DNA from: Psammoneis japonica | Lineage: Eukaryota | Reading direction: 5' to 3' | Assembly (NCBI GenBank): GCA_008632985.1 | Contig: QPGO01000021.1 | Coordinates: 1-64,000 of the forward strand | DNA: 64,000 bases | Part shown: piece by piece, positions 2,484-58,790 of the stretch | How positions within the stretch are numbered: position 1 is the stretch's first letter | How the letters are laid out: the number at the start of each line of letters is the position of its first letter | The notes under the pieces: model-generated | Seen by the model: the letters and a program-made list of their open reading frames with translations, nothing else | Told to the model about the DNA's origin: nothing | Database searches by the model: none | Made by a program: the position numbers and the translations under genes

Positions 2484-2498
2484 TTCTTCAGATCCAGG

Positions 2499-2864: not shown

Positions 2865-3140
2865 GCGGTACGACGGCTGATGGCTTCATCTATCCGCGAA
2901 CGCCTCGGTCGTGGATACGAAATTTCGAAACTGAAAAACAGCCAAAAAATGAGTCACCCTTTTGCTCGGACACCTTTTTCTATTATCATTCAGACTTTGT
3001 GAGACACACAAGCAAATTTTTACTTATGGAGCACAGAAACTGACACGTCACGTACATTGAACGAAACTAACGACACCACACAAAATCGCGTGCAGTCAAA
3101 TCAGGAGGTTCGCTTCTTTTCTTTTCGTCTCTCTCTGGCC

Positions 3141-3683: not shown

Positions 3684-3902
3684 TAGTTCAAAAAGTATGT
3701 ACAGTAGACTCAAGTTTGATTAGTGTAGAGCTTTATCAAAGGAATCTCTAGTCTTGTTGCTTTGCTTCAGCGTTACAACCAACTTGGACTTTCCACACGC
3801 CTCGAACCTGCTGGCCGTGACTGACTCACTCGATGCTGTGTAACGGAAGTAACGAGAATATCAATCCCTAGACTAAAAACAGGCAGGAGCAACAGTCATG
3901 TA

Positions 3903-26940: not shown

Positions 26941-27181
26941 GTGCTGTAATCTTTTCATATACCATACATAGTCCCTTCCCTCGAGGATGGAGATGCATGG
27001 CATTGACAGCAATCCAAACGCGGTAAACAAATATAGATGAGATCGTAGAAGGAGAGAACTACTGGAGAATGGATCGGTGGAGGACAAGATCGGTGTCGCA
27101 CAAAACAAGAATGAAATGCAAATATAACGACAAGACCCGTTTCGACACTATCTCTACTACTAGACCGCTACGCTTCAAAAA

Positions 27182-30777: not shown

Positions 30778-32416
30778 CAAGAAGGCAAAAGGAGAAAAAG
30801 CAGCCTCCACATTGAAAAAAAAGAAGCCTTCTCTTTGTGCTCAAATTGCCAGCTTTTTGGTGGCAACGTTGCTCAGCTCATGGCTGTGAACAAAAGAAGA
30901 GCAAGGCCCAATTTTTGGGGCACCTGAGAGCAAGGACATGAGAACTGGGTTGCTGGTGGGTCAAGATTTTCAACTTTTAGTTGTTGCCATGAGAGTCAGT
31001 TTTAACAATGATGAAGATCTGAAGGAAAGTGGCTTGCCTGTCAGGAGTTGTCCAACCACAATGGATGAAAACACCACAACATCACACCCTCAACTTCATC
31101 AGCTCTTTGAGAGAGTTGCAGAGACAACAAACAAACACATCACAAAGACAAAAAGCACAGCAAGATGGAGCATGTTGTCAAGGGCAGCAATGACGAAGCA
31201 CACAACATTGTTGTCTCTCTTGGCTGGTTGCACCAGACCATTGTTTGTGGGTTGCAAGTGCCGCTGCCAAGTTGACCAGAGATTTGCACAAAAAAGATGA
31301 CATGCTGGCCAGACATTTTGTGATGCTTGCATGGGTGCCACCCTCAAGCCTTGGTTTCTTGCAGGTGATGTGCACCCAACCAAAGCCCAAGAATGCTGTG
31401 AGCATTCTTCTCTTTAAGGTGGATGAGTGCAGCGCTGTTGGTTGCTGTGCCACTGAACACTTCATCTTGAGGTGCGTGCACAACAAAGGACATGTCAGAC
31501 AGACCATGATGGCCCATTTGTGATGAAAATGGAGTCTTGCCAATCTTTTTCTAAAACTGCATGCAGTCTCTCACGCAAAGCACATGCACACAAATGCTGT
31601 GACAGCCTGCCCCCAAGGACATTGCTGTCTTTTTGGTGATGATGGTGAGTGCAGCATGCACAAAGTTTCCAGCACAAAATAATTCAGGAAGTCAAATCAT
31701 CTTGCCATCCATCAGCTTGTGCGCAAAGACAACAATGCGTCCAATCATGATGGAGTGCCATGCTTTCTGTTTTGGTTTTGTTTTGGCTGAGACTGCCAAG
31801 AAGGCAAAAGGAGGAATGGCAGCCTCCACACTGGAAAAAAAAGAAGCACTCTTTGTGCTCAATCACTGGCACTTTGGTGGACAATGTCACTCAGCATGTG
31901 GCTGTGAACAACAGGAGAGCAAGGCCCATTTTTTGGGGTGCCTGAGCAAGGGCATGAGGAGCAGATTGGTGGTGGGTCAAGGTTTTCAACTTTCAGTTGT
32001 TGCCACAACAGTCAGTTTTGACAATGACACACGAAGATCTGAAGGAAAGTGGCTTGCCTGTCAGGATTTGTCTCCAACCACAATGGATGAAAACACCACA
32101 GCATCAAATCCTCAACTTTGTTTGCTCATTGAGATTTGCAGAGATGACAAACAAACATGCAACAAAGACAACAAGCACAAGATGGAGCATGTTGTCAATG
32201 ACAGCAGCAATGGCGGAGCATGCAACATTGCTGGCTCTCTTGGCCTGTTGTGCCAGACCATTTGTGGGCTGCAAGTGCCACACCAGAGAGGCACATGATG
32301 AAGATGACATGCTGATCAGACATTTTGTGACCCCAATGACTTGTGTGGACATGCCACCATCACGCCTTGGGCTTCTTGCAGGTGGCGTGCACCCCAGTGC
32401 AAGCAAAGCCCAAGAA
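30778..32416 (+). repeat. About 0.6-kb diverged direct duplication (30778-31393 and 31797-32416)
   Basis: Shared blocks gaaggcaaaagga, gaagatctgaaggaaagtggcttgcctgtcagga, caatggatgaaaacaccaca and caaagcccaagaa. Confidence 0.9.
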
Positions 32417-33427
32417 CACCATGGGATGTGCCGTGCATGTTTGGCTCTCAGGTGGTTTCCACATGAAAAGTGCACCAGGCGATCTCCGGAAATTGTTCAC
32501 ACATGCTGCTCCAGTGGAGACCAGGACATTAAAAAAAATGGGTGACAGCGCGCCGCGTGCGCAAAAAATTGAAAAAAGACAGTTGCGAGGAAGTGAGGAA
32601 GTGAGTTGACAACGTCATCAGAGACAACAAGATCAAAACAACTCCTGCATTGTGAGTGTAAAGAAGCAGCAACAAACACTGAACATTCACATTGCAGGCT
32701 TGTGCATGAAACCAGCCTGGAACCCAAAGGTGAGCCACACGTCACATCATGCTTGTTCCACGTCAGCGCTCGAGTTGACCTTGATGCCACACTTCACGCA
32801 TCCAGACAGCTTCAAGACACATGATGCATGTTCATTGCCAGACATTTCTGCTGCCACTGATGACAATTGGACCACTTTGAATGTTTTGAACTTCCCTTCA
32901 TTCCAAGAAAATGTGGGTGCACAAAGTGTTGCTGGGATGACTCCTGGAGAGACCCATCAACATTCCTCCTGCCAAGGCCAATCTCAGGAAATGAAGTCCT
33001 GCCATGCGGTGTGGCAATGTCTTTATGAGGAGTTGTTTCTGTGCTGGATTACAATGTTTGTGATAAAAGCACTGCACAAGTTGTTGATTTTCCATCTGAT
33101 CTGAGGCGGAGCAGCACGCAGGCATGCCCAAACCATCCTCTTGGTGACAGGACAAGGTGCTCCTTGACAAAACAGATCATGGCATCTACAACATGTTGTG
33201 TGTTTGTTGCTTGTTTGCACTCCATTGTCAAAATGCCGTCAGTTGGCCAGCATGGGTGTCATGGCTTTCTTTTGCATCCATTCGGGTTGGGGCCCTGTTG
33301 CGGCGCACCTTTGTCCTCTGATGCAGGTCATCACTTGGCATCAGCATGCCGGCAGAACACCAAGCACAAAGAATTGCTGGAAGATTTCCAGCAAGTTTGA
33401 GACCCACCACTTTCATCCTCGAAAATG

Positions 33428-33635
33428 CACTTGCCAACAAGGCAAAATCTGTTGAATCAACCATCTGGCAGCAACCAAGTCACACTCTCAAGTTCAAGTT
33501 GCTGAACACTCTCTCTAGCGAGGTCACCAAACACTTGCCGACAAGGCAAAATCTGTTGAATCAACCATCTGGCAGCAACCAAGTCATGCTCTCAAGTTCA
33601 AGTTGCTGAATGCTCTCTCTGGCGAGGTCACCGAA
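33428..33635 (+). repeat. Tandem repeat, 2 x 104 bp
   Basis: acaaggcaaaatctgttgaatcaaccatctggcagcaaccaagtca occurs twice at 104-bp spacing. Confidence 0.9.
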
Positions 33636-33849
33636 TGTGACTCAGTTTGCCGTGTGAAGACAGGGTGCCGCAGAGCTCAACATCATCAGACAGTTCGACA
33701 CCCTGCTTTTGCGCGAGTGGCCATTGGACTCCAAAAGTGCCAACACATGCTGCATGCCACTGGACTCCAAAAGTGCTGCCACACTCAGAGAGAGTGAATC
33801 ACTCTTCACAGCGACTGGGTCATTGATGCAGGCACACGTGGCTGCACCA

Positions 33850-34740
33850 AAAGTGGCACTGGCCAATGTTAAAAGCGCAAGTCCCACAATGATCTGGTGC
33901 CACAATTTTGTTTTGGAACCAACAGTCAACAATGGTGACCCCCCTCCACATCAAACATCAAACCTTGTGACCACCGCTCCATCAAAGGTGTTGGTGCTCT
34001 GCAGTTTTGAACATGTGATGGATGGAACGTGACCGCCACGGAGAGAGTGATTGGCGACAACAGTGCACAAAAAGAGGTGCAATCAAAAAGAGCCAACATC
34101 AATCACCAGGTGTCCAAACGGCAAAAACAGGTTTCTGCATTGGCCAAATCTGATGGAACACACCCGACGCAGTTGCAAGTTGGTCCAACCACAATCCATG
34201 CATGGCTTTTTAGAAGACCAAGCCACCTGCACCAAAAGGGCCCACCTCCCAGATGAGGGGCTGCAATGATCCAGAATCTAAGTTCAATGGCACAGACAGG
34301 AAGCATCCTGATGGGAAGTGTTCTCAAGACTTGATGCAACCACAGTCCCAGCAGTGTCGATGCATGCTTTTGCAAAAACCACGCTCGCTTCCGACTCTCA
34401 CAGTCAGAACCGACATTGGGGTCCTGCCAAGCAAACGCACCACGAGGAATCCTGAAATGAAGAGAAAGGTGTTGACTGCAAACCTTTGCGAAAATAGCAG
34501 TGTCCCACCAAACATGGAGTCTCTCCACCATGCACCATCGCTCTGTGTGCCGCAATGCCACAAAACAGTGTGCACAAGGCACAAGTCATCAAACGACATT
34601 CGATTCTTCTCGAGAAGGTGACACACAGGTGATCGGCAGCCTCATGCCCATGGCGAATGAAATGGGGGTCTGATGTGCCATACAGCGACAATGCAGGACA
34701 CCGGGATGAGACGGATGCAACAAACTGAGGGCCATCGCGA
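33850..34740 (-). pseudogene. Acyltransferase-3 (NRF-6/OafA-like) pseudogene
   Basis: Fragments in several frames: LLFSQRFAVNTFLFISGFLVV, HQVLR..LPVC..FWIIAAPHLGGGPFWCRW and ETCFC..TW match AT3 motifs (FAVDTF..ISGFL; R.LR..P.Y; GP.W; C...WYL). Confidence 0.7.
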
Positions 34741-42099: not shown

Positions 42100-44570
42100 T
42101 CACTTCTCCCAACAAAAGCCCTCTAAGACCACCAGTAAATCATCACCATGAATACCGTCACTGTCGCACGAATGCTCAGAATGAAACCGGAAGACGATCT
42201 GTGGGCGGACATGGAATTCGAAGTGCGAGACGTTGTCCACAAATTCAAACAGCTCTTGCCGCGAAGGAAGAAGACGCGGGTTGGCAACGATTTCGTGAAA
42301 ATCCTTCAGAAAAGAATCCTTCATGCATGTGGTAAACCATTCAGGAGCACTCTCCTCGTAGAGTGGAGGAGCCATTGCGGTCATTAAGAGAAGTGGACTC
42401 ACATCAATGCCGCAAAAGCCACGGTCAATCACAAGTTGTGCAGCATTGAATCCCACTTCGTCTGAGCCACAAACGCCAAGTCGCCACTTCCGTGACGGCC
42501 ACGGAGACCGTTTGTCTCTGTGCTGACCTGTGCATCATGCACGGTTGCAGCTTTTAGGTTGTCCGTACAAAGTAGAAGAACTCACATGCGTGCAGTCACA
42601 ACGTGCCCGAATTCTTCTACGCGTTGTCTTTCAGAAGTCATCGTTGTCGTCATCTTCCCTGGTCATCCTCCTCAGAGCCTTTGGTGTGAAAGAGCTCCAC
42701 ATGCACGGGCCACAGCATCACTGAGAGAAAGCGTGGGCGTGAGAGGACGATGCGAGCATTGAGACAACCGTCACCGATCATTGCCAGTCATGGGGCCAAC
42801 GAGTGGCAGTCACTGAGAGTGCTGTTGCCAAATGCGGTGGCAGCAGCTTCTTGATCTAGAGACAAGCAAATGGCTTTCCAGAGTGCTGGATTGGTTGTCC
42901 ACACCTTCGAAACAGATGAGGAGGATGACAAATCATTGCAGGCAGGAGAGACACCAGGAAAACACATGCCATGAGATGTGCTCAAATGTGTTCTTCCCCC
43001 AGCAAAAAGCCCCTCCAATGCTGCCAACAACTTGTCACCATTGACAGGTCCAAAGCACAAATGAGCACAAGCATTTCCAAAGAAAAAAGTGATTTGAGGA
43101 CCTGGAACTCCAACTCCGAGACATGGGCCACAAATTCCATCAGTTCTTGCCATGTAAAGAAAAGTGCTCAAACCCAATTTTTAAGTGCTGTTGCACCTTT
43201 GCCCAGCAACACCGGCACCGACAAACCCACACTTCCAGTGCAATCAACTGGGAGCATGACACAGAAGCTCATGAAATTAGCCGGTCGTGGCACCACTTTG
43301 CAGCAACGCCCTCCGGAGACAACTGGTTGTGAAATGAAACCACACAAGAATTGGGCCATTGCTTTCTTTTGGAATGAATGCAAAGTGTTCACACAACAAC
43401 AGCAAAGAACAATTGTGTTCAGAAGAAGATGCAAAAGCACCTCAAGATCTGGGAGAAGAACCTTGCTTGTCTGCACCAAAGAGGGACTGGATCACACACT
43501 TGCAGGCACGGGAACAAAAGCAAACAGTTTGCTGCATGGAGCAGCAATCTTGGCAAGCTGGCAAATGGAAGAAGGGATGTTCAGGACTTGCAAGTGTACA
43601 TTGGGGAGCCTTGATGATGTCACAATGCTGAGTCTTGCATGGAAATGCCAATCCGCCATGCATCAGATGGACGATGTCAGGTGATGCCAATGGTTCATCC
43701 AAGTGAACACTCACAAGAACCATGACATGCACAAAACTTTCACTGAATGAAGTGTGAAGAACTCAGTTGGCCAATGAGAGCAGAAGAAATCATTGGGAAC
43801 TGATGGCTGTGGATGGAAGTGGTGCACATGTTGACAAAGTGGTTGTTGGAGCACATTTCTGAAGCACACAGAATTTGTGCTGGATCCTGTGTAGAAAATG
43901 CTCTGAATTTGCAAAAAATTGCCAAAAAGATCAACAAGCATGTGTGAGCCACAAGGTTTTGATGCCGGTCATTTTCCACTCAAAAGCATTAAAAAGGGCA
44001 ACAGCATCAGCATGAGAGCATGTGCAGAAACACATGTGGGGGCTGCCAGTGGGGGCTGACATCAAGGAAGTCTTGTTGTGTGAGAAGTGGCAGACATCTG
44101 ACAAGACAGCCAACATCTCACAAAAAAGTCCTTCATGCATGTGGCAAACCACGGAGGAAGATTCTCCCCCATGATGACAAGGGGTTGTCAGAGTCATGAG
44201 GAGAAGAGGACTCACTGCAACTCTGGTGCAGCCAAGCTCAAGTGAAAGTCCAGTGGCATTGTGCCCCACTTTGCCACAGCCAATCACCAAGAAGTCTCTA
44301 CTTGCATCACAGCTGTGGCCACACATGTTGCATTCTGGGGCAATGCAAGCATCACACACGTTCACAAAATCCAGTGGATTGCCTTTTTGGCGGAATTGCA
44401 CTTGCATGCATGCATTGGCAAAGAATTCTTTTGTCACATGTCTCGCTGGTGTCAGATGTGCATTGCATCCAAACTGAAGGTCATCATCACTGTCACCATC
44501 ATTTTTGTCATCAAGTCCAAGGTCTGGAGGAACACTTGCCCAAACATTCAGGGCTTTGGGGGGTTTCATC
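42100..44570 (-). pseudogene. Three degraded paralogous fragments of an unknown protein family
   Basis: GFNAAQL..VSPLLLMT (about 42390-42456) matches GHNATGL..VSPLLLMT (about 44195-44270). PQIVF..GDDLLVVLEG (42100-42210) matches PQITF..GDKLLAALEG (42990-43100). DNA ccttcatgcatgtgg-y-aaacca is shared. Confidence 0.6.
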
Positions 44571-47500
44571 AAGAGAGAAGTGCCGCATCACTTGTCTGGG
44601 TTCATCCTCAGTGATGCCATTGATGTTGCAATGCACGCAGAGCTCAACACTAGCCACAAAATCACTGTGACAAAGTGCTGGCATGAGTGGATGGCAAGCC
44701 AACAGCATTTTAGGTTGTTGATCCTCAGTGCAAGAAATGGAGTTGATTTGGCAAGACAAATGAGGCACATGGCAGACAAATGTGGGAAAGACCAAAAAAA
44801 ATGTGTCCAGAGATTGGGCTGTCATGCATGACAGCCTCTTAGCCTTTGAACAGGTTCACAATGGACGGGCCCCAACATGGCTGGAAATGATGATGCTGAG
44901 GAGACACGATCATGGTGCCTCCACTGACAGCAGTCTCTTTGGCTTTGAACAGAGCCTCACATTTTCTGCTGCTGCTGCTGCTGCTGCTGCTGCCTGCTGC
45001 CACTCTACAATGGACTGACTGTTGCTCACTCATGCTTTCTGTTTCTTGTGCTTTTTTGAATTCAAGGACCCAGAAACTTGTGTCATGTGACATCACACAC
45101 AAACGCTTGTGCAAATCAAATCTTCAGCAAGCAAAAAAAAACTCAAGTGACAGTTCTCATCATTGTTGATGCTTTCTGCCATGTTGCCAACTTTTTACCA
45201 TCTCAAAACCCCAGAGCAAACTCCTCTTTTGCCATGACAGTCTACATCCCAAATCAACTCTTCATCATTCATTGCATCCCCCTGTTGTGCAACATGACTT
45301 CTCTCACATGGAAGGAGAGATGAATGGACTGCCTTTGACACCATGTTTTTCCTCAGAGTGTTCTGTGTCTTGCATCCCATTGTTGCCTCAAGGGATGTGT
45401 GCAAAGTTTGATTTGTGGATCACAAGATGATTGACAAGCTCGCTGGAAACATCAATGCACGTCTTTCAAAGACATTTGAAAGACAAAAACATTGAAGACA
45501 AATCAGCGGTGGTTGTGAATGATGCTGTTGCCACAGCATTGGCTTCTGTTGGCTGGTGGGTGTCAGAAGATTGAGACATCTTCCCAACAAGGCATTTGAG
45601 TCATCCTTGGAACTGGCAACAACTTGGATTGTGTGGAGGGAACACAGATGCACAACATCAAGACTGGTGGTTTCAAAAATCTCAAGTGCAATGAGATCAA
45701 CAAAAGTGGCATTGACATTGAAAGCCACAATGAAAGCAAAACTTTTACAAAAAGGCAGTCACTGAAGAGTGCCTTGGTCTGCTCACATTGAGGCAATTAA
45801 AAAAGAGCCCTGACTGAAAGAAACACAAAGAAATCCTTCAGAGAATGCAAGGAGGAGCAAGGTTGGACAAGATGTGGGAGCTTCTCAAGACCATGGATGC
45901 ACCTGAGTCCTTCAAAAAGATCTTTGAAAAGGTGATTGATTGTGCAGCTAAGCTGCACCAGTTGCATTGTTTGTTGCTGCAGCCATTGCAAGGACTGGCA
46001 AAGGATTGCAGAACAGAAACCAGCCAACCAGGTCTGTGTCAGCACAATCGGTCAGCGCAACAAGATGGTGCAGGAAAAAGTGGAGTCTTGTCTCAGAGAG
46101 GTTGTCAGTGAAGGCATTCATTGTCATTGCATTTGTGTTGAGAGTGCCTTTGCTGTTGGTGCAGCCATCACAGAATCTTGGCTTCCAATGAAGAGGAGCA
46201 GATGTTGGAGTGGATGGAACTCTCTTCTGGCACCAATGAACAGAGAAGCCAGACATTGTGCTGCATGGCTTGGACATTCTGTGCACATCCATCAATCCTG
46301 TGAAAAGTCTTCACCTGGTGTTTTTAAAGCATGCATGCTCCCACTGTGCAACACAACTGGCTGGCTCTAGCTGGAGAGAGAGAGAGAGACTGCAGCACTG
46401 CAGTTACGTGAGACAGACAGATGGTGTCAGCGCATTTGAAGCACTGTTGCCCATGTCACATTGCATCATCATCCTTCATCATTGCAATCTGTCCACTGTC
46501 CATTGCCATTCTAAATTTGCCAGTTTTGCCAGTTTTGCCAGTTTTTTGTTGACAAACCATGAAAAGCTCAACAGCTTGCAATGGTGTTGGCAAAATTGAT
46601 CCCAGCCCCTCCAAAAGGATGACATGCAACCAAAGCTTGCCTTTGCAAGCCAGCTGTCCCAGGGACAATGCAAACTGTTTTAAGATGTGGCATCCTCCCA
46701 ATCCTCTCCTGTCAATGCACACATTTCATTTGTGCCACACAAAGTGTGCAAAGCACCGAGGACAGCCAGCAACAAGAAGTGGCAATTCTTGAAAGCTCCC
46801 TTTTGCTTTTGAACAACAGAACATGGAATGGCCAGACTCAGCACATGGCATTGCTGTGTCATTGGCACCATGCAGCAGAGTGCTGGTTGCTTTTGAGAAA
46901 TGCCCATGTCCTCAATGTCATGCTGTGATCACTGCAGGATCAAGCAGAGCTCAAGTTGTCTTGTCCTGTGGTGTGGCTGTTCTCACCACAACTCAGGAAC
47001 AGCAGCAAGTGACTGTGATTTGTTTGATGGTGTTTTTCCATGACATTTTCACAGCTCTTGCAGGAGCATTTGTGCAGTGCTGAGCACAGTGCCATGAAGT
47101 GTTTGCTGCCATGTGATTGCAACATCTGTCTTGTCAAAGATTTACATTTTGCCACTTGGGATGTCTTTGCAAGTCATGCAAGTCACAACTCCTCTTCAAT
47201 CCAGCAGGAGTTGACCCACATGTGCTTGCAGAGGAGCTGAAGGCTCCAGTGGCTCAACTCAGCAGTGCTTGGATTCCATTCTCTGGGCAAAGCAATTTGA
47301 CACAGCAATCTGCAGCTTTGTTGTTTGTGCCATGCCAATGACCCTTGCATGCTCATGGATGAATCACTCTCAAGGATGCAGACTCAAGGTGCTGCAACAG
47401 CTGCACATGGGCAAACATGCACAAAAAGACATGTGCACATGGGGCATCATCAGATGGCTTTTGTGCTCCCTCTGTGATTGAAGCTTCAAAGAACTCATGA

Positions 47501-50500
47501 GAAGCAAGTTAAATGAGCACATTGCAGCTGAAAAGAAAATTGAAACAGCTGTCTTCCTCAGCTGTCTAAAGCTCTGTTGCCAACACACATGACTGGAGCA
47601 AATTTTGGCCATTGCCCATGTGTCTTGGCGGTCTGACCCAGACTTCACCCACCAACAAAGCAACAAAAAATGGTTTTTGTTTTCAAATCACAGCAGGTTT
47701 CTGGGCAGAGAGTCCCCAGCTCCAGCAACATGTTTGGAAAACAACTGCCTGGCTGCAACAAGGTTGAGCCACTGCAAACAAGTTTGCAGATTGTGCTGGC
47801 ACCCCAACAAAGACTGGACAGCCACACACTTGCACTGCACAAGGGGGGGGCGGGGGTGCTCACATTGATGTGCATGAATGGTTGCCATGCCCAGCCCCAG
47901 TGCCATTCAGTTGAATTTTTTAATCTACAAGGACTCTCTCTGCCCACAAGTTTCCTGGGGAGGACTCAAAATGAGGCAAATGAGGCATGTGCCCTTGTCA
48001 AAGCCACTCACAGCTTGAGCATCACCAAATTCATTGGGAGGGGTGGGGGCACAACACAAGTGACCATGTGCACAACAGCATCATTTCATCAGCTTTTGCT
48101 GCAGTCACAGGCAGCAACCAGCTCCTCTAGCGCTTCTTGGCGTGTGGGCTTTTGGGCACTTGGAATGGCTCTTGCACTTGTTCTCAGCATGTGCAGGCTT
48201 TCAGGCACTTGGGATGAGAGATGAAGCCCCACACCACAAAAAACAGGGCTGAGTCTTTGCTTGTGCACACTTCTCAGCACTTGCAACTTGGAAAAATGTG
48301 CACACCACTCACCAAGAACTTTGAAAGCAGCTTTAAGCAAAGCAGCCAAGGTGAGAGCACATGGCATTTCTCTTGTTTCTCATTGCAAAGAGAAGGAGCT
48401 CTCCATTTTTGTTTGATGTTGTGCTTCCCTCTTGTGGAAGCACACCAGCATGCTGTCATGCAGAGTGCAGCATTTGCTGGAGTGTGGTGGCTCTGGTCTC
48501 CTCCCTCATGCATCATTGTCTCTCCACCTGCATTGATGTGCTGCTGTTTACTTTTTGGCTGTGGGCTTCAGACTTGGCCACCTCAAGCAGTTTGATGCAG
48601 CAAAATGGCCCATCTGCCAACCATTGGAGTCACCAGCCATTTTAAAATTTGAGCGCAGGTGCGCAAGACCAGAGCAACAGCCACTTTGTTGCTCTCTCAC
48701 TCACTTGCTCTTCTGACTCTTCCAAAGAGCAACCAACAGCAGCAGCTGCAACAGACAAAATGATTTTAATGCGGTTGTCTCAGTGCAGTGCACTGCCCAC
48801 TGTTGTTTGTTGTTTGCAGGAAGAAAGCACAGAGTGCCAACCAACAGGGCATTCTTGGTGGTGGCTGCCATGCAAGCAGCTCAACAATCCTGTGATGGCT
48901 CTTTTGCCCCATGCGCCCAGCTGTGCCAGGCAAAAATCACCTGGTCATGCAGCAGGGGTCAATGTTTCAGCACTGCACACAGGTTGAGATCCAACGCTGG
49001 TTCCTGTCCCAATCCACTGCTCATCAAGAGGTCCCGTTCACTGCCTCAATGCTTCATGGGGCAGAAAAGGGCATGATGTTGTGGTGTTTGATCTCAACTG
49101 CCACAGCAACAACTTGTGCCATTAAATCTTGCAGTCACAAGTTGCCATGATGCAGCGGGACATGGCACAGGTGGCGTGCTCATCCTTGCTGATGCAACTG
49201 TGCAGCGCTGGCTGCCACCACCTTGCAGTTGACAGTGTGATGCAGGTCCCACAGCATGGTGCCTGTCACTTCCCAAATGTGTGCTGGTGGTGTGCATTGC
49301 TGCATGCTCTAACCCATGGGGCCCAACTGCCAACATGGAGCTGGAAGAACTTGCCAACAGAATCATGCAGTTGCACGGCACAGCCAAATGCTTTGACCAC
49401 ATCTGTGAGAGCACCAATCTCTTGCATGCCAACAACTCTGGTGCAATGTGCTGGCAACAAAAAGGGGCCACTGTCACCACAAAACCCACCTCCAAGTTGT
49501 TGCTGTGCTGTCAAGCTTTTCACCAACATTGCCACCAATGCATCGGCCTCCATGTCTGCTGGCCAGGATGCCTCAACTCTGCTGCTCAGTTTAGTTTCGC
49601 TGCAGGATTCCCAAAATTCTCTGGGATTGCCACCTTTCACCATGTTTGAATGATGCTTTGTCAAACATGTGCCCAATGCTTGAAGAAAAAAATCACACAT
49701 TGGGAGTTCCCCATGCTTCCCCTGCATGATGTGACACGTGCACCACAGATGTTGCAGCAGTCCAGAGCTGCAGCAGAGCCAATCAGCTGTCAGACACCAC
49801 ACACCACACAACACATCATCAAACACTGCTGCTTCAACAGTTTGGAGAGCCATTCACTGACAATGACAGCTGCTGCAAGGATTCTCTGCAGCACTGCAGC
49901 ATCTTTTCACTGCCATGTTCATGCCACCGGATTGTTTTCTGATGTCACACAGATTGGTGCTGCATGTTTCTCATTGCAACACAAATGGCAGCCATGCCTT
50001 TTGCTCAGTCAACACCCATCACATTGTCAACACACAAATCAACTCTTGCAGCAGCTGCCTCTTCAACAGCTGTGCCGTTCATTGCCACTTTCATGTGCAG
50101 CACATGATCTTTTTGTTGTCAAGTTGGTGACGCATCTTTCTTTTTTTAATGCCACAAATCTGGCGTTTTTTTTTGTTGAGATTTAAGATTGCATCTTTTT
50201 GTTCATGCACTCACCCATGTCTTGTGCATGACCCTCATCTTTGTCACTCACATTTCAGGGTTTCACTTTTCTCACAAAATTCATTTTGGCAAATGAGTGA
50301 TGAAGAGCAACAGGATGATGCTCGTGTGAGTGTTGCGGCTGTCATTGCAGATGCATGAGGAGCTCCCAGCAATCACAAGCATCTGGGATGGCAAAATTGC
50401 ACCCAAGAATGCAGCTGGCTGGATGTGTGGTTTGTGCAAGCAGTCATGCAGCAGAGCAGCTAAGTGGGTCAATCTGTTCTGGTGTGCAACAGTGCAGCAG

Positions 50501-51118
50501 CAACAGTGCGCAGCAAGCTCCAAATCTTGATTGTCGCATGACAGCAAGATGGAAATTTTCTAGATTGCATTCATCAACTCTGCTGGAGACAAGAGCACAC
50601 CCACCCAAACCACGTTCATCCAGAATTGCCGCAATCCACTCGTTTTTTATTCCCCTCTCCTGAGCCCTTTCAGTTTTTCCTTTTTGCAAAAAATTGCCCT
50701 CATTTCCTGGGCATTTCCCAAAAGGGTTGAGGCAACTCCCCCCCTGCCCTTGCCATTTTGGGGAATCCCCAAATGGGTGAAACCAAACTGAGCTCTTCTG
50801 CTGATGATGCACCCCGCCTCCAATCTTTGTTTGCACTTCCTGAGAGTTTTTGCAAGAGCGCTTTTGCCGTTGTCGCCTGAACAGAAATTCTCTCCTGGTG
50901 CCTCTGGACACCACTGCCTGAGCTGACCTCTTCCTTTGTGAGGACCTCAATGCTGCTCAGCATGCCGTGGCACATTGCATTGCGTCACTGACTCACAAGC
51001 CTCCACTGGCAACAAATGCCCGCTGGCTGCAGGAGAACGAATGAGAAGGGCGTTGCGCACACAGCAGTGCACGCATTCTCAATGTTGTGTTCGCAGCCGG
51101 CCCCCGTGCGTTGAATGA
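42780..51118. other. Long TpA/CpG-depleted degenerate repeat block
   Basis: About 8 kb with very few TA or CG and dense spurious Cys/His/Gln-rich ORFs. Confidence 0.75.
48578..49586 (+). mobile_element. Heavily decayed relic of the same tyrosine-recombinase retrotransposon family
   Basis: 48578-48780 resembles repeat A (aaatttga..gagcaa..cttcc-r-aagagcaac). 49140-49586 encodes CHDAAGHG.GGV, NP.GP..N.ELE and NSGAMCWQQKGAT..KP.S.LL, homologous to the RNase H at about 53010-53460. Confidence 0.8.
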
Positions 51119-51387
51119 CCCACCTTGTGCAGTGCAACAAGGCAAATGACCCACATTTGACCGTTGGGTCATGCAAACCGTTTGAGTTCAAATTTGAACG
51201 TGCTTGCGCGAACTTGGCGAGCAAACAACGGTTTTTTCTGCTCTTTTCTCGTTTGCTTCACTCATTCTTCCGAAGAGCAACAAAGAGCAAGAAGCCGCTA
51301 GACAGTTTTTAACGCTGTCGACGCGGCGCAGGATGCCTCCGCTGTGGCTCCCTGTTGTTCGCAGGAAGAACCTTTGGTGAGTCCATC

Positions 51388-53778
51388 ATGGACGTGCAAC
51401 AGCAGCAAAACGCAGGACAAGGGGCCCAGAATGCCCAAAATGCCAACGACCCTGCTCCACCGCAAAGAGGAGCTGCAGCAGCCGCCGCGGCAGCCCAAAA
51501 CGCTCCGCCACCTCCTCCTCCACAAGTCCTGGTGCCTCCGGTGGCACCGCAAGCAGCAGGAGCCGTCATGCCGCCACCGCCACCGGGTGCACAAGCCGCA
51601 CCGGTGGCGCCGCCGGTCATTGCGACGCACCGGGATTTTTACCTCACAGCCGCTAACGACCCACACCGGGGGGTGCACGACGAGTCGATGCTAGACTTCG
51701 CGGTTCCGGTTCAGGGACCTTCGAGATACAACCCCGGAGTGCTCCATGGGCGAGTTGCAGCGGCGTCAAGTCACGATCAGCCGATGGCCGTCATCGTGCA
51801 CTGCCGAGAGGACGGCGCAGCGGATGAAGGACAGATCCAAGTCCTGCACCGCGTCACCACTTATCCGACGACCGTGGTTGGACCTGCCGAACCTTGGGAC
51901 GGTGAGACGCACGCAATGGCGGGTGACCTAACCCGTGGACAGTTTGCCCTGGTCGAATTCGGGGGCGACTCATTCAACTTGGCACAGCAGGGGACTAGGG
52001 TGCCAACCCACGCCGCACTCCTGGAGCATGTCACCAACAATGCGGAAGGCCTGCATCCGCATCTGGCTGAGGATGCACCAAACTCGGAGGTCGTACGGAC
52101 ACGACATGCAATGCACGTGCCATTTGAGTTCGTGCCGCTCTTGTTGGCACACCCTTTGCATCCCAAACAAGCCCACCAGCGCGTGCACGGCGCCGCTGCG
52201 GCAGCTAACAAGGTGGCTGCCATCCGACCACTGCTCGACTTCTTGCGCGTCGCCTGCTGTGCCACTGCCAACAACCAAGTGGCATCTGTTGTGGCGCAAC
52301 CTTGGCCTGCAATGACACGTCCCCCCAACGAAGCCCTCATTCAATTTTTTGATGCCAAGGTGGAGCGGGACATCCCCGGGAGACTGGGTTGGGCACCACC
52401 CACCGCGCAGCACTTCCAGCCGGTTGCACAGGCCATTGAAGAGCTCACCACTGAACAACGACAACTCCGACTTGATGCTACCGCACGTCAACAAGCGGCT
52501 GCCCGGGGCAAGGTTCCCAATGAGTTCTGGGGACCTTTTGGTGTCACCAAGCTTGTGAATTGGTGCCACGCCCTCAACGAGACAGCACTGCCGCCTGTGT
52601 GGGCCGCCCTTGCCGCAGCGCCTAAGACAGGCCGCCTGGCAGTCGTCCAAAATGCAATTGACGAGCAACGCCAGGCAATGGCCGTTCATTTTGACGCACC
52701 AGTCACGGTTGGCCTTGTCACCAAGCTCGCACAGCTGGATTTTGCTGGTCACAATCAAGACGAGCCAACCCAAGGCATCACTCCATTCCAGTTTGGGATT
52801 GCTGCGCCAGACAGTGCCGAGCAGATCGCCTGTCGCAAGGCCATGTACATGCACATTCATGGCGGCGCTGCGGCCCCGTCCCTCCAAGACACGCAGATCC
52901 TGGAAGCACCAGACAAGGCGCTCGTGGCGACGACAATGCAAGAATCTACCCTAGACGCCCGACCCGTTCGCATTCAAGAATTGGTTCCACTCAAACCAAC
53001 ACTCACCGGCTGTCATGATGCTGCAGGTCACGGCGCAGGCGGCGTCCTCCTGCCAACCAGTGCCACAGCACCCAGAGCAGCCACTCTCCGTTTCGGCAAT
53101 TGCAGACGCTGTCAACAGAGAGATGCGGGTCCTGTAGTGTGGCGACTGCCCTTTCCCAAAAGTGTCAGCAGTCAACTCTCCACTTTCTCCAACCCGCGCG
53201 GTCCCATCACCAACACAGACCTGGAACTTGCCGGCAGTGTCATTCAGTCCTTCGGCGCCGCCGACTGTTTTGACATCCGTGAACGCACCAGTCTTTCACG
53301 CACCGACAATTCAGGCACCATGTGCTGGCAACGTAAAGGTGCCACCACTGCCGTCAAACCCGCCTCCCGGTTGCTTCGACACCAATCCTACCACCAACGC
53401 TACCATCGCTACTTGGGGTTGCATGACTGCCCACCTGGACACCTCAACACTGCCGCTGACGATGCCTCACAACTGCAGTCTTTGTCCAACCATGAATTTT
53501 TGCGTCACTTTAATTTGTGCCATCCGCAGAAACTCTCCTGGCGTCTCTGGATGCCTCCACCAGAACTGAGTTCATACGTGATCTCAATGCTGCTCAACAC
53601 GCAGTCCAGCATGGCGTTGCCTCTTCCAGAGCCTCCGCCGCCAACACCCATTGGGACAAATGGTGAGAGTTCTGCTCCTCTTTGGCCATCGACCCACTCC
53701 TCAAAGACATTGACGACCCTGTTGTCTTCCTCCAAGTCTTCTTGCACCGATGCCGCACAGGAGTCCTCGCGCCGCTGA
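51388..53778 (+). pseudogene. Gag-like region fused in frame to a DIRS-type RNase H domain (RT apparently deleted)
   Basis: Pro/Ala/Gln-rich gag-like N-terminus, then RNase H motifs HDAAGHGAGGV, ITNTDLELAG, RTDN and PGHLNTAADDAS. No RT YxDD-like motif between them. Confidence 0.75.
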
Positions 53779-54664
53779 AGATGCCATGCGTTCGGTTGGC
53801 CAAACGTTTGCTGCAATGGGGTCCCCGGATCCACGCCACACATCCCAAGGCACAATGGATTTCCGCCTCACCTGGCAAGTCCGTTTTTACAAGAAGCAGG
53901 ATCCACCCCCAGACCACGTAAAACCGGTCCCAATTGCAGTGCTGCAATGGATTATGACCGCCGCAGCCCTCAGCAATGCCCCGGGCACACAAGCCATTGC
54001 TGAAATGATTGTACTTGCCTTTTTCTTCCTGTTGCGGCCTGGCGAGTACACCGCAACACCATCAGACACCACCCCCTTTCGTCTCGCCGATGTCCGGCTT
54101 GTGTCTGGTGGTGCTCACCTTGATGCCATGCAAGTTCCACTTGCACACCTTGACACAGCAAACTTTGCCACTCTCACCTTTGCCACCCAGAAAAATGGAG
54201 TGTGAGGCAAAGTTCTAGGGCTTGGTCTTTCCGGTCACCCCCACCTGTGCCCGGTTCAAGCCCTCATCCGCCGTGTCCAACACTTGCGCACCCACGGTGC
54301 GCTCCCTGACACACCCCTTGGTGTTTGCTTTCAAAACAACACCTGGCGTCGTGTGTCCCCGGCTGACATCACCAGCATGCTGCGCAATGCTGTCACTGCT
54401 CTCGGTCCGGCTAATCTTGGCTTCACCACCCGAGATGTTGCCACTCGGTGTCTTCGTGCCGCCGGAGCAATGGCCCTCCTTTGTGCCCGCGTCGACACCG
54501 ATCTCATTCGGCTCTTGGGCCGCTGGCGATCCGACGAAATGTTGCGACACCTGCACTTGCAAGCAGAACCAGTCATGCGCAACTTCGCTCGCGACATGCT
54601 CGCCGGTGGCGACTTCGTCCTCCACCCCAATGCTGACGTCCCTCAAAATCCTCAAGACGCCTGA
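53580..54664 (+). pseudogene. Tyrosine recombinase of the retroelement, inactivated
   Basis: FFFLLRPGEY (Arg I), TQKNG, RCLRAAGA and GRWRSDEMLRHL with the expected catalytic Tyr as His (CAC 54548-54550). In-frame TGA at 54203 and a frameshift near 53775. Confidence 0.85.
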
Positions 54665-54691
54665 TCACCACAGCCCTCCAGCCTCAACCCA

Positions 54692-55230
54692 CCCACCCTC
54701 CCAAAAGTGCACGGCACTGTGGGTGGCGCTGGAAGGCCCTGCCATTCCAGCTTGGGATTTTGGGAATGAGGCTTGCGCATCCGCTAGCAAAGCCATTCCA
54801 GTCCATCATTAGAAGATCTCTAGATGGCACTAGAGAGCCGCAGGAGAAGGAACAAGACGGGCGGCGTGAGCCGCCCACCTTGTGCAGTGCGACGAGGCAA
54901 ATGACCCACATTTGACAGTTGGGTCATACAAACCGTTTGAATTCAAATTTGAACGTGCTTGCGCGAACTTGGCGAGCAAATGACGGTTTTTTCTGCTCTT
55001 TTCTCGTTTGCTTCACTCATTCTTCCGAAGAGCAACAAAGAGCAAGAAGCCGCCAGACAGTTTTTGATGCTCCCACCTCTCCCGCCCTCTGGCCCTGCCG
55101 TTCCAGCTTGGGTTTTTGGGAATGAGGCTTGCGCATCCGCTAGTAAAGCCATTCCAGTCCATCATTAGAAGATCTCTAGATAGCACTAGAGAGCCGCAGG
55201 AGAAGGAACAAGACGGGCGGCGTGAGCCGC
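54692..55230 (+). repeat. 3' B1-A2-B2 split direct repeat block
   Basis: The 140-bp B cores differ at 4 sites; A2 matches A1 over about 197 bp. Confidence 0.9.
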
Positions 55231-55736
55231 GACGTCTACGGTGTATGTATCTCGAAATCGGCGAGTTTAGTCGTAGGAATCATGGAGAGGCTGCCTTTAC
55301 ACGACCGGCCGCCGCGCTGTTGAAATTTGGATCACTTTTTAAAAATAGGCCACACAATCGTATTTGAATAAATGATATCTTGTGCGGTAACGGATTCTAG
55401 ATCACGTAAAATTCATATGTGTTTAATCAGAATTTAATATAAATTGATACTTATCGATACCTTCTTTAAATTAAAACATATTCATATATGAAAAGTAATA
55501 TTTATCGTCTAATAACGGATTGTAAATCCCGTATAATTGTGTTATACATATTAGGTACCATATAAGAAGATACAATTCCCACGTGAATTTTGGAAATCAT
55601 GAATCTGCGAGCGAAGAGCGAGCGAAGGCACCAGCGAGCAGTGTGCGTGCACACTCACAACGGTATTTTGGGGGGAGACGAGTTGTACGGTAAGAGGGGT
55701 TTGTAAGAGGACTACATACAACATTGATTAGGCAAG

Positions 55737-58700
55737 ATGAGACGCATCTGCTGCCGATCATCAAACGATGAAGGCTTGAAGAATCATCATTCGGAGAGAA
55801 GATCTTGTCTCCAAAAGTGGGACTTTTACACCGAGCGCTACTTTAAGCGACCCATTCTCAAAGGACTTATCTGGTTAGCAAGTGAAGCAGCACGTTGTCC
55901 CGGCTTGACAATCGCCATCTCGATTACCGTGGCCGTCACTGTTGTCTGTGCTGGGTTTGCTACAAACTTTAGGGTGGAAACGAATCGTGATGTTCTCTGG
56001 ACGCCGATAAATTCCTACTCCGAGAAGCACTGGCAGTGGCTGAATTCGGATGATGCAGGCTTTCCCGCCCCAGACCGGTATGTTGATTCGATGGTACACA
56101 TGTCGGGAAAAAACGTCCTTACAAGACAAGGTGTCGATTGCCTCTTTGACGTCTTGGAAGTGTTGCAAAGTTCAGCGGGTTACGAAGACGCTTGTTCCCG
56201 GTCAGAAAACGGAGAGTGTCGAATATTCTCAGCCACAGCCTTCTTCAATCATGATCGAGCTCAAATGGAAGCCCTTTTGGCTGAAGACACGGATGATGAT
56301 TTGACGCTAAGGCGCCTAATGTCAGCTTTAGAGTACCCAAACGAGGAGCCGGTGTTTCGAGACATTGTCTTCGGAACATCTCTGCCAGAGCTACCAAAGA
56401 ATACTTCTTCTGCTTCGCAAGAAGATCTGCTCTTGACCAGCGCAAAGGCTCTCATGGTTCGAATCGCCGAACCTCAAGCGGATATAACCAATGCGGGTGA
56501 GTTTGAGCTTGAATCCATGAAGAATCTAGACCGCGTCAACGACCGCTGGAAGAGGGCTGGGTCGGAGTGTGCCGTCAGCTTTACAACGAAACGATCCGTG
56601 GACGATGAAATGCAACGTGGGATCAAGAAGGACATACCGTACATGGCGCTGGCCTTTATCATTATGGGCTGCTTTTGTGGTCTCTACTTGTCCAACTTTA
56701 GAGACCTTGTGAAAAGCCAGAGCCTTGTGGGCTTGGGCGCCGTGGTAACCATTCTCGTATCCGTCGGAACCGGATACGGGCTACTGTTTCTTATTGGTGT
56801 CCCGTTCACCAACATGACCCAAGCTTTTCCGTATGTGATGGTGGGGATTGGGCTGGATGATACATTCATCCTTACAGGCGCGTTTCATCGATCGGATTCT
56901 TCCAAACCCTTTGTTGATCGTGTGGTTGAAGTTATGAAGGAAGTCGGTGTCAGTATTACAGCGTCTACCCTGACTACCGTGACAGCCTTTTCTCTCGGGT
57001 GCACGTCAAGCATTCCAGCCATTCGCTGGTTCAGTTATTACGCCGCCCCGACCGTGGCCATTGATTTCATCTACCAGATTACCTTTTTCATTGCGATTTT
57101 GGCATACGATGATCGAAGACAGAAAGCCGGTCGCTACGATGTTCTTATCTGTGTCAAGGCCAAGAACAAGTCTCCCGAGCACGAGTCGCAGAGTGCTCCA
57201 GTAGTCCACCAAGAGAACAAGCCAAACTTCATCACCAGGCTAATGGCATGGTACTCTGGAATTCTTCTCAAGCCCATCTCGAAGGTTGTCGTGCTCCTTG
57301 TGTTTTCGGCAATGTTGGCTCTCGGAATACTCGGTGCCATAAATCAGAGGCAAGAATTTGATTTCCGAGAGCTCGTTCCTGCGGACTCTTATCTGAGAAC
57401 CCACTTTACGAATCTCGATGCCTACACGCTGCCCGAGACGGTTTCTCAGTTTCCCATCGGCGTGTATTTTCGTGGCGTTGACCAAGGATCAGAAGAAGTT
57501 CAGCAACAGATGCTTGACTTTGTAGATGATCTGGTGGCGCTCCCGTACATATCCAACCCACCGGAACTCTTCTGGTTGCGAGATGCCAAGAGATTGCAAC
57601 AGGAGGTAGCCTTTGCGAACTACACATTTGAAGAAGGGGTTGATCTTTTATTGAATATTGAACCCGCCAAGACACTCTACGGTCCTCAGATCGTGCGTGA
57701 TGAGTTCGGCAACGTCACCGCATCACGAACCTATGTAAGGTTCGATAAGTCATCCTTGTTCGATGTGAAGAACCAGATTAATTCGCTAGAGGCGGCACGT
57801 GAGGTATCACGATCACATCCTGTAAATCAGGGAAGTGATGATTGGAAATTCTTTGCTTTTGGCGAATTGTTTATGGTATGGGAGACGTATTCTGTGTTGG
57901 TCGAAGAGATCATGTTCACTGTTGCGCTTGGGCTGGTTTCGGTGTTTTCAATCTCTTTACTTTTTATCCCTCACCCAATCGGCGCGCTTCTATTGACTCC
58001 CGTTGTCGGAGCCATCTACATTGAAGTCATGGCGGTACTGTACGCCGCTGGGATTTATATCAATGGTATTTCAACAATTGGACTGATTATGAGTGTTGGT
58101 CTTGTTGTTGACTACAATATGCATGTCGTGCTCACCTACTACGAAATCAAGGATGCCACGACTCGCAACGATCGTGTTTACAAGTGCCTTACTACAATGG
58201 GTACATCGATCCTCTTGGGAGGCTTCACGACGTTCATCGGTGTCCTTCCTCTTCTCCTTACCCAGTCGGAAATCGCAAGAACTTTCTTCTTCACTTTTTT
58301 GGCAATTCCTTTGCTGGGTGTGGCTCACGGACTGATGTTGGTACCGGTCATTTTGTCATTGTTTGGTCCTGTTGGTCAACCGGAGAATACGCTTGCAGGT
58401 TATGACGACGAGAAGGATGTCTCCACTGACGAGCACTCAACCGATGCGGAAATCTCAGGAAATTCATCGATATCAGACGGCTCGGAATCATCCGTACAAG
58501 CCTACGATTTTTCTTCGGTGACGGACATCGAAGTTGAAACGGACATTAACGGAAGCGTCACAGTTTTCCATTCCAGACAGAGTCGAAACAAGGGAGCCCC
58601 CCAGGTTCGAGCTATTGTTGACACTGAAGTGCTCAGCCAACGATCATATCCTGTTGTCCATAATTCTTCTTACGACTTTTCTTCCATAGAGCTGCCAATG

Positions 58701-58790
58701 GAAGGAGACGGAAGCGTTGCGGTTGTTCATACCGGCACTGGGAAGAAGCAGCCTTCCTTTCCCCGAAATTCTACCCTGTCAGAGTTTTGA
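55737..58790 (+). CDS. Patched/NPC1-family (RND, sterol-sensing domain) membrane protein
   Basis: 1017 aa ORF with 1+5+1+5 TM layout, GIGLDDTF and GLVVDYNMH GxxxD motifs, and two large luminal loops with several N-x-S/T sites. Confidence 0.92.
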   Translation: MRRICCRSSNDEGLKNHHSERRSCLQKWDFYTERYFKRPILKGLIWLASEAARCPGLTIAISITVAVTVVCAGFATNFRVETNRDVLWTPINSYSEKHWQWLNSDDAGFPAPDRYVDSMVHMSGKNVLTRQGVDCLFDVLEVLQSSAGYEDACSRSENGECRIFSATAFFNHDRAQMEALLAEDTDDDLTLRRLMSALEYPNEEPVFRDIVFGTSLPELPKNTSSASQEDLLLTSAKALMVRIAEPQADITNAGEFELESMKNLDRVNDRWKRAGSECAVSFTTKRSVDDEMQRGIKKDIPYMALAFIIMGCFCGLYLSNFRDLVKSQSLVGLGAVVTILVSVGTGYGLLFLIGVPFTNMTQAFPYVMVGIGLDDTFILTGAFHRSDSSKPFVDRVVEVMKEVGVSITASTLTTVTAFSLGCTSSIPAIRWFSYYAAPTVAIDFIYQITFFIAILAYDDRRQKAGRYDVLICVKAKNKSPEHESQSAPVVHQENKPNFITRLMAWYSGILLKPISKVVVLLVFSAMLALGILGAINQRQEFDFRELVPADSYLRTHFTNLDAYTLPETVSQFPIGVYFRGVDQGSEEVQQQMLDFVDDLVALPYISNPPELFWLRDAKRLQQEVAFANYTFEEGVDLLLNIEPAKTLYGPQIVRDEFGNVTASRTYVRFDKSSLFDVKNQINSLEAAREVSRSHPVNQGSDDWKFFAFGELFMVWETYSVLVEEIMFTVALGLVSVFSISLLFIPHPIGALLLTPVVGAIYIEVMAVLYAAGIYINGISTIGLIMSVGLVVDYNMHVVLTYYEIKDATTRNDRVYKCLTTMGTSILLGGFTTFIGVLPLLLTQSEIARTFFFTFLAIPLLGVAHGLMLVPVILSLFGPVGQPENTLAGYDDEKDVSTDEHSTDAEISGNSSISDGSESSVQAYDFSSVTDIEVETDINGSVTVFHSRQSRNKGAPQVRAIVDTEVLSQRSYPVVHNSSYDFSSIELPMEGDGSVAVVHTGTGKKQPSFPRNSTLSEF

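What the first reader, a model, noticed from the sequence alone, without database searches (positions are those of the whole stretch)
53580..54664. Recombinase catalytic tyrosine converted to histidine by a TA->CA change
Seen: GRWRSDEMLR-H-LH, codon CAC at 54548-54550. Known: DIRS-order recombinases end in G.W.S....Y, with Tyr as the nucleophile. Nearby HRCRTG, MCWQRKG and HDC also fit Tyr->Cys. Inference: every Tyr codon begins with TA, so this mutator would efficiently kill Tyr-dependent mobile-element enzymes (YR, RT YxDD, HUH).
Basis: partly seen in the sequence, partly recalled or inferred. Interest (0 to 1): 0.7.

Follow-up and report, generated by a model that had tools for sequence, protein, structure and literature searches.

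The report
TA-erasing mutation disables jumping-gene recombinase
A broken jumping gene in a diatom-like genome has lost the tyrosine its recombinase needs because a mutation process rewrites T-A steps in such DNA to C-A or T-G; tyrosine is not singled out, but it is the one residue here that cannot avoid being hit.

Summary
Confirmed: CAC (His) at 54548-54550 replaces a Tyr found in 119 of 120 homologous recombinases and 77 of 80 metagenome loci. Thirty copies in this genome read TAC 4, CAY 17, TGY 9, which are the two outcomes of mutating TpA on either strand. The element is a DIRS-order retrotransposon with split direct repeats. This copy also lacks its reverse transcriptase and has two stops and a frameshift. 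A tree model puts TpA loss on terminal branches at about 80-590 times background, with both strands hit and a neutral spectrum. The window copy lost about 58% of its parental TpA and 11% of its CpG. Three qualifications. Tyr codons are lost no faster than other TpAs in the same context. The RT YxDD Tyr survives in 14 of 18 copies. The His may have been inherited from a parent copy, which would imply recombinase supplied in trans. The same TpA process is described in one 2026 preprint (Bigelowiella viral inserts); four searches found no diatom report. The scan noted it many times on other DNA of this genome. The enzyme is unidentified; adenine deamination is most likely.

The parts
51119..55230 (+). 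Whole element: DIRS-order (tyrosine-recombinase) retrotransposon with split direct repeats, 4,112 bp, internally deleted (siblings about 6.37 kb). TA o/e 0.22, CG o/e 0.80
   Evidence: empty-site contig joining 51118 to 55230 in run X1
51119..51316 (+). Repeat A1
   Evidence: 198 nt, 95% identical to A2
51388..52940 (+). 5' part of the gag-like reading frame (no Pfam match; name by position only)
52940..52941 (+). Junction of a 2,232-bp deletion that removed the reverse-transcriptase region present in siblings
52941..53778 (+). 3' end of pol (RNase H-like region by position and recalled motifs); Cys for Tyr at 53323 and 53428
53580..54664 (+). Tyrosine recombinase gene, broken: TGA at 53664-53666 and 54203-54205, 28-bp deletion at 53771; of five Tyr columns three are lost (53751 Cys, 54326 Cys, 54548 His) and two kept (53888, 54047). 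The start may lie a little before 53580
   Evidence: fold of intact homologue P0002 matches Cre
54548..54550 (+). CAC (His) at the invariant C-terminal Tyr, the presumed nucleophile
54735..54874 (+). Repeat B1
   Evidence: 140 nt, 97% identical to B2
54874..55071 (+). Repeat A2
   Evidence: 10 differing letters against A1, 8 of them in TA/CA/TG/CG steps
55091..55230 (+). Repeat B2
   Evidence: 4 differences against B1, 2 at TA, 1 at CG
55231..55727 (.). Unmutated 3' flank (TA o/e 1.05; first TA 7 bases after the element), followed by a Patched-family host gene at 55728-58790
42700..51118 (.). Older repeat block (TA o/e 0.07, CG o/e 0.17) holding decayed pieces of the same family at 48690-48825, 49307-49586 and 50882-50986

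Best explanation
The His is one hit of a TpA-specific A:T>G:C mutator that acts on both strands of chromosomal DNA in silenced mobile elements of this diatom-like genome. Shown: TA becomes CA or TG about equally; the loss falls almost wholly on the terminal branches of single copies, has a neutral amino-acid spectrum there, prefers TA followed by a pyrimidine, and stops at the element's edge. The source lineages were largely spared and were under purifying selection. CpG decay (CG to CA or TG) runs alongside at a lower rate. Inferred from the genetic code: every Tyr codon is TAY, the favoured context, and both outcomes (His, Cys) change the residue, so a recombinase whose nucleophile must be Tyr cannot escape, while the RT motif can use Phe. 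Inferred, not shown: the chemistry is deamination of the A by a TadA/ADAT-type enzyme (about 50%) and the trigger is the silenced, CG-methylated state rather than pairing of repeats. Confidence given is for the post-insertion TpA mutator as a DNA process.
For: Only TAY, CAY and TGY occur at the codon in 30 copies. Nine-copy alignment: 113 columns mix CA and TG, 52 mix CA, TA and TG. Tree model: expected hits per TA site 0.82-1.59 on terminal branches with background 0.0014-0.015, against 0.10-0.21 on the two long internal branches with background 0.028; share TA>CA 0.44. The inferred starting TA share (0.108 of pyrimidine-purine steps) lies in the range of 30 metagenome relatives (0.078-0.169, median 0.128), while the nine copies have 0.023-0.042, which fixes the direction. 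Terminal hits are 29% synonymous (131/455); changes fixed in a clade are 57% synonymous (56/98), p=2e-7. Split repeats, which should be near-identical at insertion (PMC6681497, passage), differ at 90 places in the 16 repeat pairs scored in eight copies, 74 of them in TA/CA/TG/CG steps. Relative hazard by base 3' of the A: T 1, C 0.8, G 0.42, A 0.32; TadA's natural site is U-A-C-G (PMC10586758, passage). Non-retrotransposon DNA is hit too (a host FG-GAP gene: 4 conserved Tyr are His or Cys). Same signature seen live in Bigelowiella (bioRxiv 10.64898/2026.01.13.699255).
Against: No enzyme was found: the own-genome search gave only ordinary-looking deaminases (one TadA-like with Asp at the E. coli 108 position, one ADAT2-like, two dCMP deaminases, one deaminase-oxygenase fusion). 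Sequence cannot tell a change of A from a change of the paired T. TA dose correlates only weakly with background length (rho 0.57, p=0.11) and with CG dose (rho 0.52, p=0.15; n=9), so one recent episode is not excluded. Some sites are kept far more than the four-letter context predicts, the RT motif Tyr among them. For the catalytic codon itself the model favours inheritance from a parent copy (posterior about 1.0 for the window copy), though that model ignores site-specific strand bias, which exists. No methylation data were seen.
Confidence: 0.85

Rival explanations
1. Chemistry rival: the base that is altered is the T of TpA (oxidation by a TET/JBP-type enzyme to 5-hydroxymethyl- or 5-formyluracil, then T>C), not the A.
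For: TpA is a palindrome, so T>C on one strand and A>G on the other give the same data. In dinoflagellates 5hmU replaces T preferentially in TA and TC and marks transposons (PMC11572971, passages).
Against: TC is not affected here (singleton transitions at GA/TC 30/5842, background level). That 5hmU itself pairs normally is recalled, not tested. The Tet_JBP search of the genome was blank but uninformative.
Confidence: 0.15
2. Error-prone repair synthesis (Pol eta-like) recruited to T:G mismatches from methyl-CpG decay produces the A>G changes.
For: TA loss and CG loss occupy the same DNA and the same terminal branches.
Against: Pol eta hits both TA and AA (recalled). Here AA transitions are at background (32/5103 against 30/5842 for GA), and hits show no same-strand clustering in 8 of 9 copies (one at p=0.026).
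Confidence: 0.1
3. The changes arise by RNA or cDNA editing during retrotransposition (ADAR-like), not in the chromosome.
For: Young copies already carry a large dose (0.82-0.88 at background 0.002); ADAR favours U before A (as stated in the Bigelowiella preprint).
Against: Both strands are hit about equally within each copy; split repeats differ from each other; older copies have lost more (core TA o/e 0.00-0.04 where CG o/e is 0.2-0.3); a host gene is hit; TAG is disfavoured.
Confidence: 0.07
4. The His at this codon was inherited: the five-copy clade that includes the window copy spread with a dead recombinase, using one supplied in trans. This concerns the history of this codon and is compatible with the mutator.
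For: All five clade copies and three of four sister-clade copies read CAC, against 9 CAY and 8 TGY outside the group; posterior about 1.0 that the parent node had CA; changes fixed in this clade are less synonymous (25/52) than in the sister clade (31/46) and include seven Tyr losses.
Against: Strong site-specific strand bias occurs at other Tyr codons (for example 20 Cys to 3 His) and can mimic inheritance; the clade's fixed changes still show purifying selection (p=0.007).
Confidence: 0.5
5. Tyr codons or catalytic sites are specifically targeted or selected for loss.
For: Tyr is by far the least kept conserved residue.
Against: In matched context Tyr TpAs are lost no faster than TpAs at other codon positions or in non-coding DNA.
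Confidence: 0.04
6. Artefact or natural variant: base-calling error at modified DNA, plain CpG decay, or a recombinase that works with His.
For: The raw reads behind the assembly were not seen; position 54548 is not among the 40 difference rows shown.
Against: Contigs of run X1 match the stretch (173 of 671 laid at 99% or more; may be the source sample). CpG decay cannot give His and Cys at a Tyr codon. No homologue among 120 proteins and 80 loci has His there. The changes are shared along a tree.
Confidence: 0.03

Closest known systems
TpA hypermutation of integrated NCLDV and virophage DNA in Bigelowiella natans (Mettrop et al., bioRxiv 10.64898/2026.01.13.699255; parts 1-3 of 5 of the text read, supplements closed)
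   Same: A:T>G:C changes only at TpA, giving TpG and CpA on both strands of nuclear DNA; foreign or mobile DNA is the target; TpA-poor genes there are enriched for transposon domains; enzyme unknown, ADAT2 proposed.
   Different: Here a diatom-like host (stramenopile, not Rhizaria), retrotransposon copies, an inferred rather than observed process, a much deeper loss (o/e 0.0-0.27 against 0.45), a measured 3'-pyrimidine preference, parallel CpG decay and a read-out in catalytic residues. Common origin of the two is untested.
Repeat-induced point mutation (RIP) of fungi (search listings and abstract starts only; details recalled)
   Same: Dinucleotide-specific transition mutagenesis that wrecks transposons in the chromosome and leaves neighbouring genes alone.
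   Different: Opposite direction: RIP turns CpA into TpA and makes stops; this removes TpA and makes no new stop. Dependence on pairing or on the sexual cycle is not shown here.
DIRS-order retrotransposons with split direct repeats (Ngaro-like, PAT-like, VIPER-like; PMC8547959 and PMC6681497, passages)
   Same: A1-ORFs-B1-A2-B2 layout, about 6.4 kb, gag-like/pol/recombinase order, no target-site duplication beyond one shared C, internally deleted copies.
   Different: The recombinase has Arg-x-x-Arg where Cafeteria Ngaro has His-x-x-Arg; gag and pol are one frame in siblings; superfamily not assigned because no RT tree with reference elements was made.
Methyl-CpG decay in silenced diatom transposons (DNMT5; PMC9998398, abstract and outline)
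   Same: CG>CA/TG at about 10-60 times background on the same terminal branches; C5-methyltransferase domains are present in the genome.
   Different: Explains the CG loss and the CGA>TGA stop at 54203, not the TA loss or the His.

Membership tests
Tyrosine recombinase (Cre/lambda-Int fold) | Fold | tested here: met
   Model of intact homologue P0002 (pLDDT 87) matches Cre: Foldseek E 7e-7; VIA Z 17.9, rmsd 4.6, 274 aligned. Sequence-profile search of the PDB gave nothing; Pfam PF00589 only weakly on P0069 (E 6e-4, under cut-off).
Tyrosine recombinase (Cre/lambda-Int fold) | C-terminal Tyr nucleophile at this column | tested here: inconclusive
   Invariant Tyr347, eight residues after invariant Trp339. 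Alignment ranges end with model 339 on Cre 315 and 344 on Cre 319-320, which puts it near Cre Tyr324 (Cre numbering recalled), but residues 340-350 are under pLDDT 50, so the superposition of the Tyr itself is not shown.
Tyrosine recombinase (Cre/lambda-Int fold) | Intact catalytic Tyr in the window copy | tested here: not met
   His; the gene also has two stops and a frameshift. It is a pseudogene of the family.
DIRS order, split-direct-repeat type | A1 ... B1 A2 B2 repeats | tested here: met
DIRS order, split-direct-repeat type | Reverse transcriptase upstream of the recombinase | tested here: inconclusive
   Deleted in the window copy; siblings carry a YVDD motif and a weak RVT_1 match (E 0.07, under cut-off).
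DIRS order, split-direct-repeat type | No target-site duplication | tested here: met
   Six junction pairs show none; the empty site joins with one shared letter. That this is typical of the order is recalled.
Ngaro superfamily | His-x-x-Arg motif as in Cafeteria Ngaro | tested here: not met
   Arg in 114 of 120 homologues at that place. Not filed as Ngaro.
Ngaro superfamily | Placement in the Ngaro clade of an RT/RNase H tree | not tested
   No reference elements were fetched.
Bigelowiella-type TpA hypermutation | A:T>G:C confined to TpA, both strands | tested here: met
   AA, GA at background; CA singleton rate raised about twofold (0.012), probably misassigned TA or CG sites
Bigelowiella-type TpA hypermutation | Limited to foreign or mobile DNA | tested here: inconclusive
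   Sharp edge at 55230 and normal host genes, but a host FG-GAP gene and one thioredoxin-gene copy are also hit.
Bigelowiella-type TpA hypermutation | Ongoing, observed as new mutations in culture | not testable with these tools
   Needs mutation-accumulation lines.
Fungal RIP | C>T transitions that create TpA | tested here: not met
   TpA is destroyed, not made.
Fungal RIP | Triggered by pairing of repeats before meiosis | not testable with these tools
   One duplicated host segment shows loss in one copy only (14 of 17 TA lost in the C132 copy, none the other way), a weak hint against.

The most novel reading that the evidence does not exclude
Diatoms have a silencing-coupled DNA adenine-editing defence, a mirror image of RIP, that strips most TpA from a new insertion within a fraction of a percent of background divergence. 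It disables tyrosine recombinases through the one codon they cannot recode, and elements persist only as a few unsilenced source copies whose recombinase also moves His- or Cys-bearing copies in trans. The same signature in two unrelated metagenome copies (L140, L144) and in protein P0001 would make it shared by other organisms.
Probability: 0.35. Interest if true: 0.85.

Novelty: new variant of a known kind. Interest (0 to 1): 0.6.

Why it matters
A natural, sequence-specific A-to-G mutator of chromosomal DNA has been reported in one preprint only, in a different eukaryotic supergroup and mainly on viral inserts. Finding it on retrotransposons of a diatom-like genome, with direction, strand symmetry, timing and context measured, points to a wider genome defence and to a natural DNA adenine editor of possible use. 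The single codon in this finding is a clear read-out, not a separate mechanism. It also warns annotators: such copies keep long open frames, lose Tyr instead of gaining stops, and look older than they are.

Tried and rejected
Pfam on the window's own recombinase pieces and gag frame: no relevant family. Profile search of the PDB by sequence: nothing. Tet_JBP search of the genome: blank, and the control rang nowhere, so no inference. No RNA holder listed for the stretch, so expression is open. Run X2 covers little of the stretch. Strand clustering of hits: not found in 8 of 9 copies. A recoded TGA was considered because most internal stops in RT matches are TGA; siblings have CGA or CAA at the window's stop, so it is CpG decay. 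The idea that the active lineage had purged its own TpAs failed: its inferred TA share is like that of relatives. Two base-editing reviews gave nothing usable (PMC9399415, PMC10960570; passages). A word search of earlier notes for an enzyme candidate returned none. HUH enzymes and DNA transposons were not examined. Three scripts stopped on errors; the needed parts were rerun. Kept fractions use only sites with posterior above 0.8 for TA in the parent and so overstate retention.

Full report
Observation. The window reads GRWRSDEMLRHLHL with CAC at 54548-54550. A search with the C-terminal frame gave 329 longer homologues, of which 120 were listed; the column is Tyr in 119 and Cys in 1. Of 146 metagenome loci, 80 were kept; 77 have Tyr and 3 Cys. 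A model of the intact homologue P0002 matches Cre recombinase (Foldseek E 7e-7; VIA Z 17.9, rmsd 4.6, 274 aligned). The Tyr lies eight residues after an invariant Trp that aligns at Cre position 315. The loop holding it is poorly modelled, so its role as nucleophile rests on invariance, position and family knowledge (Cre numbering recalled).

The element. Split direct repeats A1 51119-51316, B1 54735-54874, A2 54874-55071, B2 55091-55230 give the layout described for Ngaro-, PAT- and VIPER-like elements (PMC8547959, PMC6681497; passages). The genome holds at least 46 matches. The four closest siblings are about 6.37 kb; the window copy lacks 2,232 bp (the RT region) at 52940 and 28 bp at 53771, and has TGA at 53664 and 54203; siblings have CGA or CAA at the latter. 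There is no target-site duplication at six junction pairs, and a contig of run X1 joins 51118 to 55230, so an empty site exists. Nearest Atlas clusters of the recombinase and of a host protein are mostly Bacillariophyta, on few members, hence 'diatom-like'.

The codon across copies. In 30 loci the codon is CAC 15, CAT 2, TGC 7, TGT 2, TAC 4. At recombinase columns at least 90% conserved, Tyr is kept in 7 of 59 cells, Arg in 399 of 513, all others in 82-100%. In pol, Tyr is kept in 1 of 39 cells, others in 52-100% against a more distant reference.

The process. In nine aligned copies 113 two-letter columns mix CA and TG and 52 mix CA, TA and TG. A four-state model on a tree built from other columns gives 0.82-1.59 hits per TA site and 0.07-0.29 per CG site on terminal branches whose background is 0.0014-0.015; the two long internal branches (0.028 each) carry 0.10-0.21 and 0.046. 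That is about 80-590 times background for TA and 10-60 for CG. The window copy lost about 58% of parental TA (21 to CA, 30 to TG, 36 kept) and 11% of CG. The inferred starting TA share matches 30 metagenome relatives, which fixes the direction. Terminal hits are 29% synonymous, clade-fixed changes 57% (the fixed set includes some misassigned sites). Both strands are hit, without clustering in 8 of 9 copies; the A is hit more when followed by T or C; AA and GA are at background. A1/A2 and B1/B2 differ mostly in these steps: 74 of 90 differences over the 16 repeat pairs scored in eight copies (L035 gave none, L038 only B). The 3' flank is untouched from 7 bases out. Older copies have lost nearly all TA and most CG.

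What the Tyr claim gets right and wrong. Tyr codons are not hit faster than other TpAs in the same context. They are exposed because TAY is the favoured context and both outcomes change the residue; neither creates a stop. Why that site resists is unexplained; other YTAY sites are also kept. HUH enzymes were not tested.

A twist. Eight of nine copies of the window's group read CAC, against 9 CAY and 8 TGY elsewhere. The model gives a posterior near 1.0 that the window copy's parent already had CA. Site-specific strand bias, seen at other Tyr codons, is not in the model, so I put inheritance at about even odds. If true, copies with a dead recombinase were still moved, and losing the Tyr does not by itself stop spread.

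Mechanism. Most likely an adenine deaminase acting on silenced DNA. TadA recognises U-A-C-G (PMC10586758, passages), which fits TA followed by a pyrimidine. The genome search found five deaminase matches, none unusual on inspection: TadA-like with Asp at the E. coli 108 position, ADAT2-like with Asn in the matching motif (common in ADAT2, recalled), two dCMP deaminases and a deaminase-oxygenase fusion. Thymine oxidation, Pol eta-like repair and editing during retrotransposition are weighed under the rivals. CG loss fits DNMT5-type methylation (PMC9998398, abstract; 27 methyltransferase-domain matches); methylation itself was not observed.

Known work. Mettrop et al. (bioRxiv 10.64898/2026.01.13.699255; parts 1-3 of 5 read; supplements closed and may hold context data) saw TpA-only A:T>G:C hypermutation in Bigelowiella viral inserts. 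Four searches found no report in diatoms; the library lacks most subscription papers. Earlier notes of this scan describe the same process on other pieces of this genome, including loss of this Tyr in other copies; they are leads, not support. Outside this genome, two 97%-identical metagenome copies differ at 74 letters, 57 of them in these steps, with 20 TA versus CA/TG differences, and P0001 has His or Cys at 4 of 5 Tyr columns while 115 of 120 have none.

Verdict. Real, well explained as a by-product of a TpA mutator that is itself striking and barely described. New variant of a known kind; interest 0.6.

Noticed in passing
window 498-2498 (-): A host FG-GAP repeat gene has TA o/e 0.14 with CG 0.92; 4 Tyr conserved in paralogues are His or Cys and 3 are kept. 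A 94% copy lies at the end of contig C132. The mutator reaches non-transposon genes.
   Followed up: partly
L193:368-948 versus window 3138-3719: A second copy of the thioredoxin-like gene end in C132 has lost 14 of 17 TA while the window copy kept them: one-sided loss in a duplicated host segment.
   Followed up: partly
window 51118/55230: The element sits almost exactly at the border between an old TA-free block (last TA at 50648) and TA-rich unique DNA; the empty-site contig shows the border predates the insertion and has TA at 50978 where the window has CA.
   Followed up: partly
L140, L144 (metagenome contigs) and protein P0001: Related recombinase elements from other samples show the same TA to CA/TG signature and Cys at the catalytic column; L142 also has low TA (0.26).
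   Followed up: partly
L034, L031-L038 gag/pol region: gag and pol form one 1,622-codon frame in this subfamily; the TGA in two copies is a CGA decay. A metagenome relative (L068) has separate frames.
   Followed up: partly
window 54785-54831 and 55141-55187: CTAG sites in the B repeats survive in nearly all nine copies; CTAG and TTAA are the most resistant contexts.
   Followed up: yes
window 8000-10300, 14000-15000, 22400-27000, 30000-34500, 42700-51100: Further blocks almost free of TA and CG lie between normal genes; their origin was not worked out.
   Followed up: no
L066 (G000:C79): A deaminase domain fused to what looks like a 2-oxoglutarate/Fe(II) oxygenase (by eye, not scanned); substrate unknown.
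   Followed up: no
window 55388-55538: A 26-nt direct repeat, 125 bp apart, in the AT-rich stretch before the Patched-family gene; it differs strongly between two alleles in run X1.
   Followed up: no
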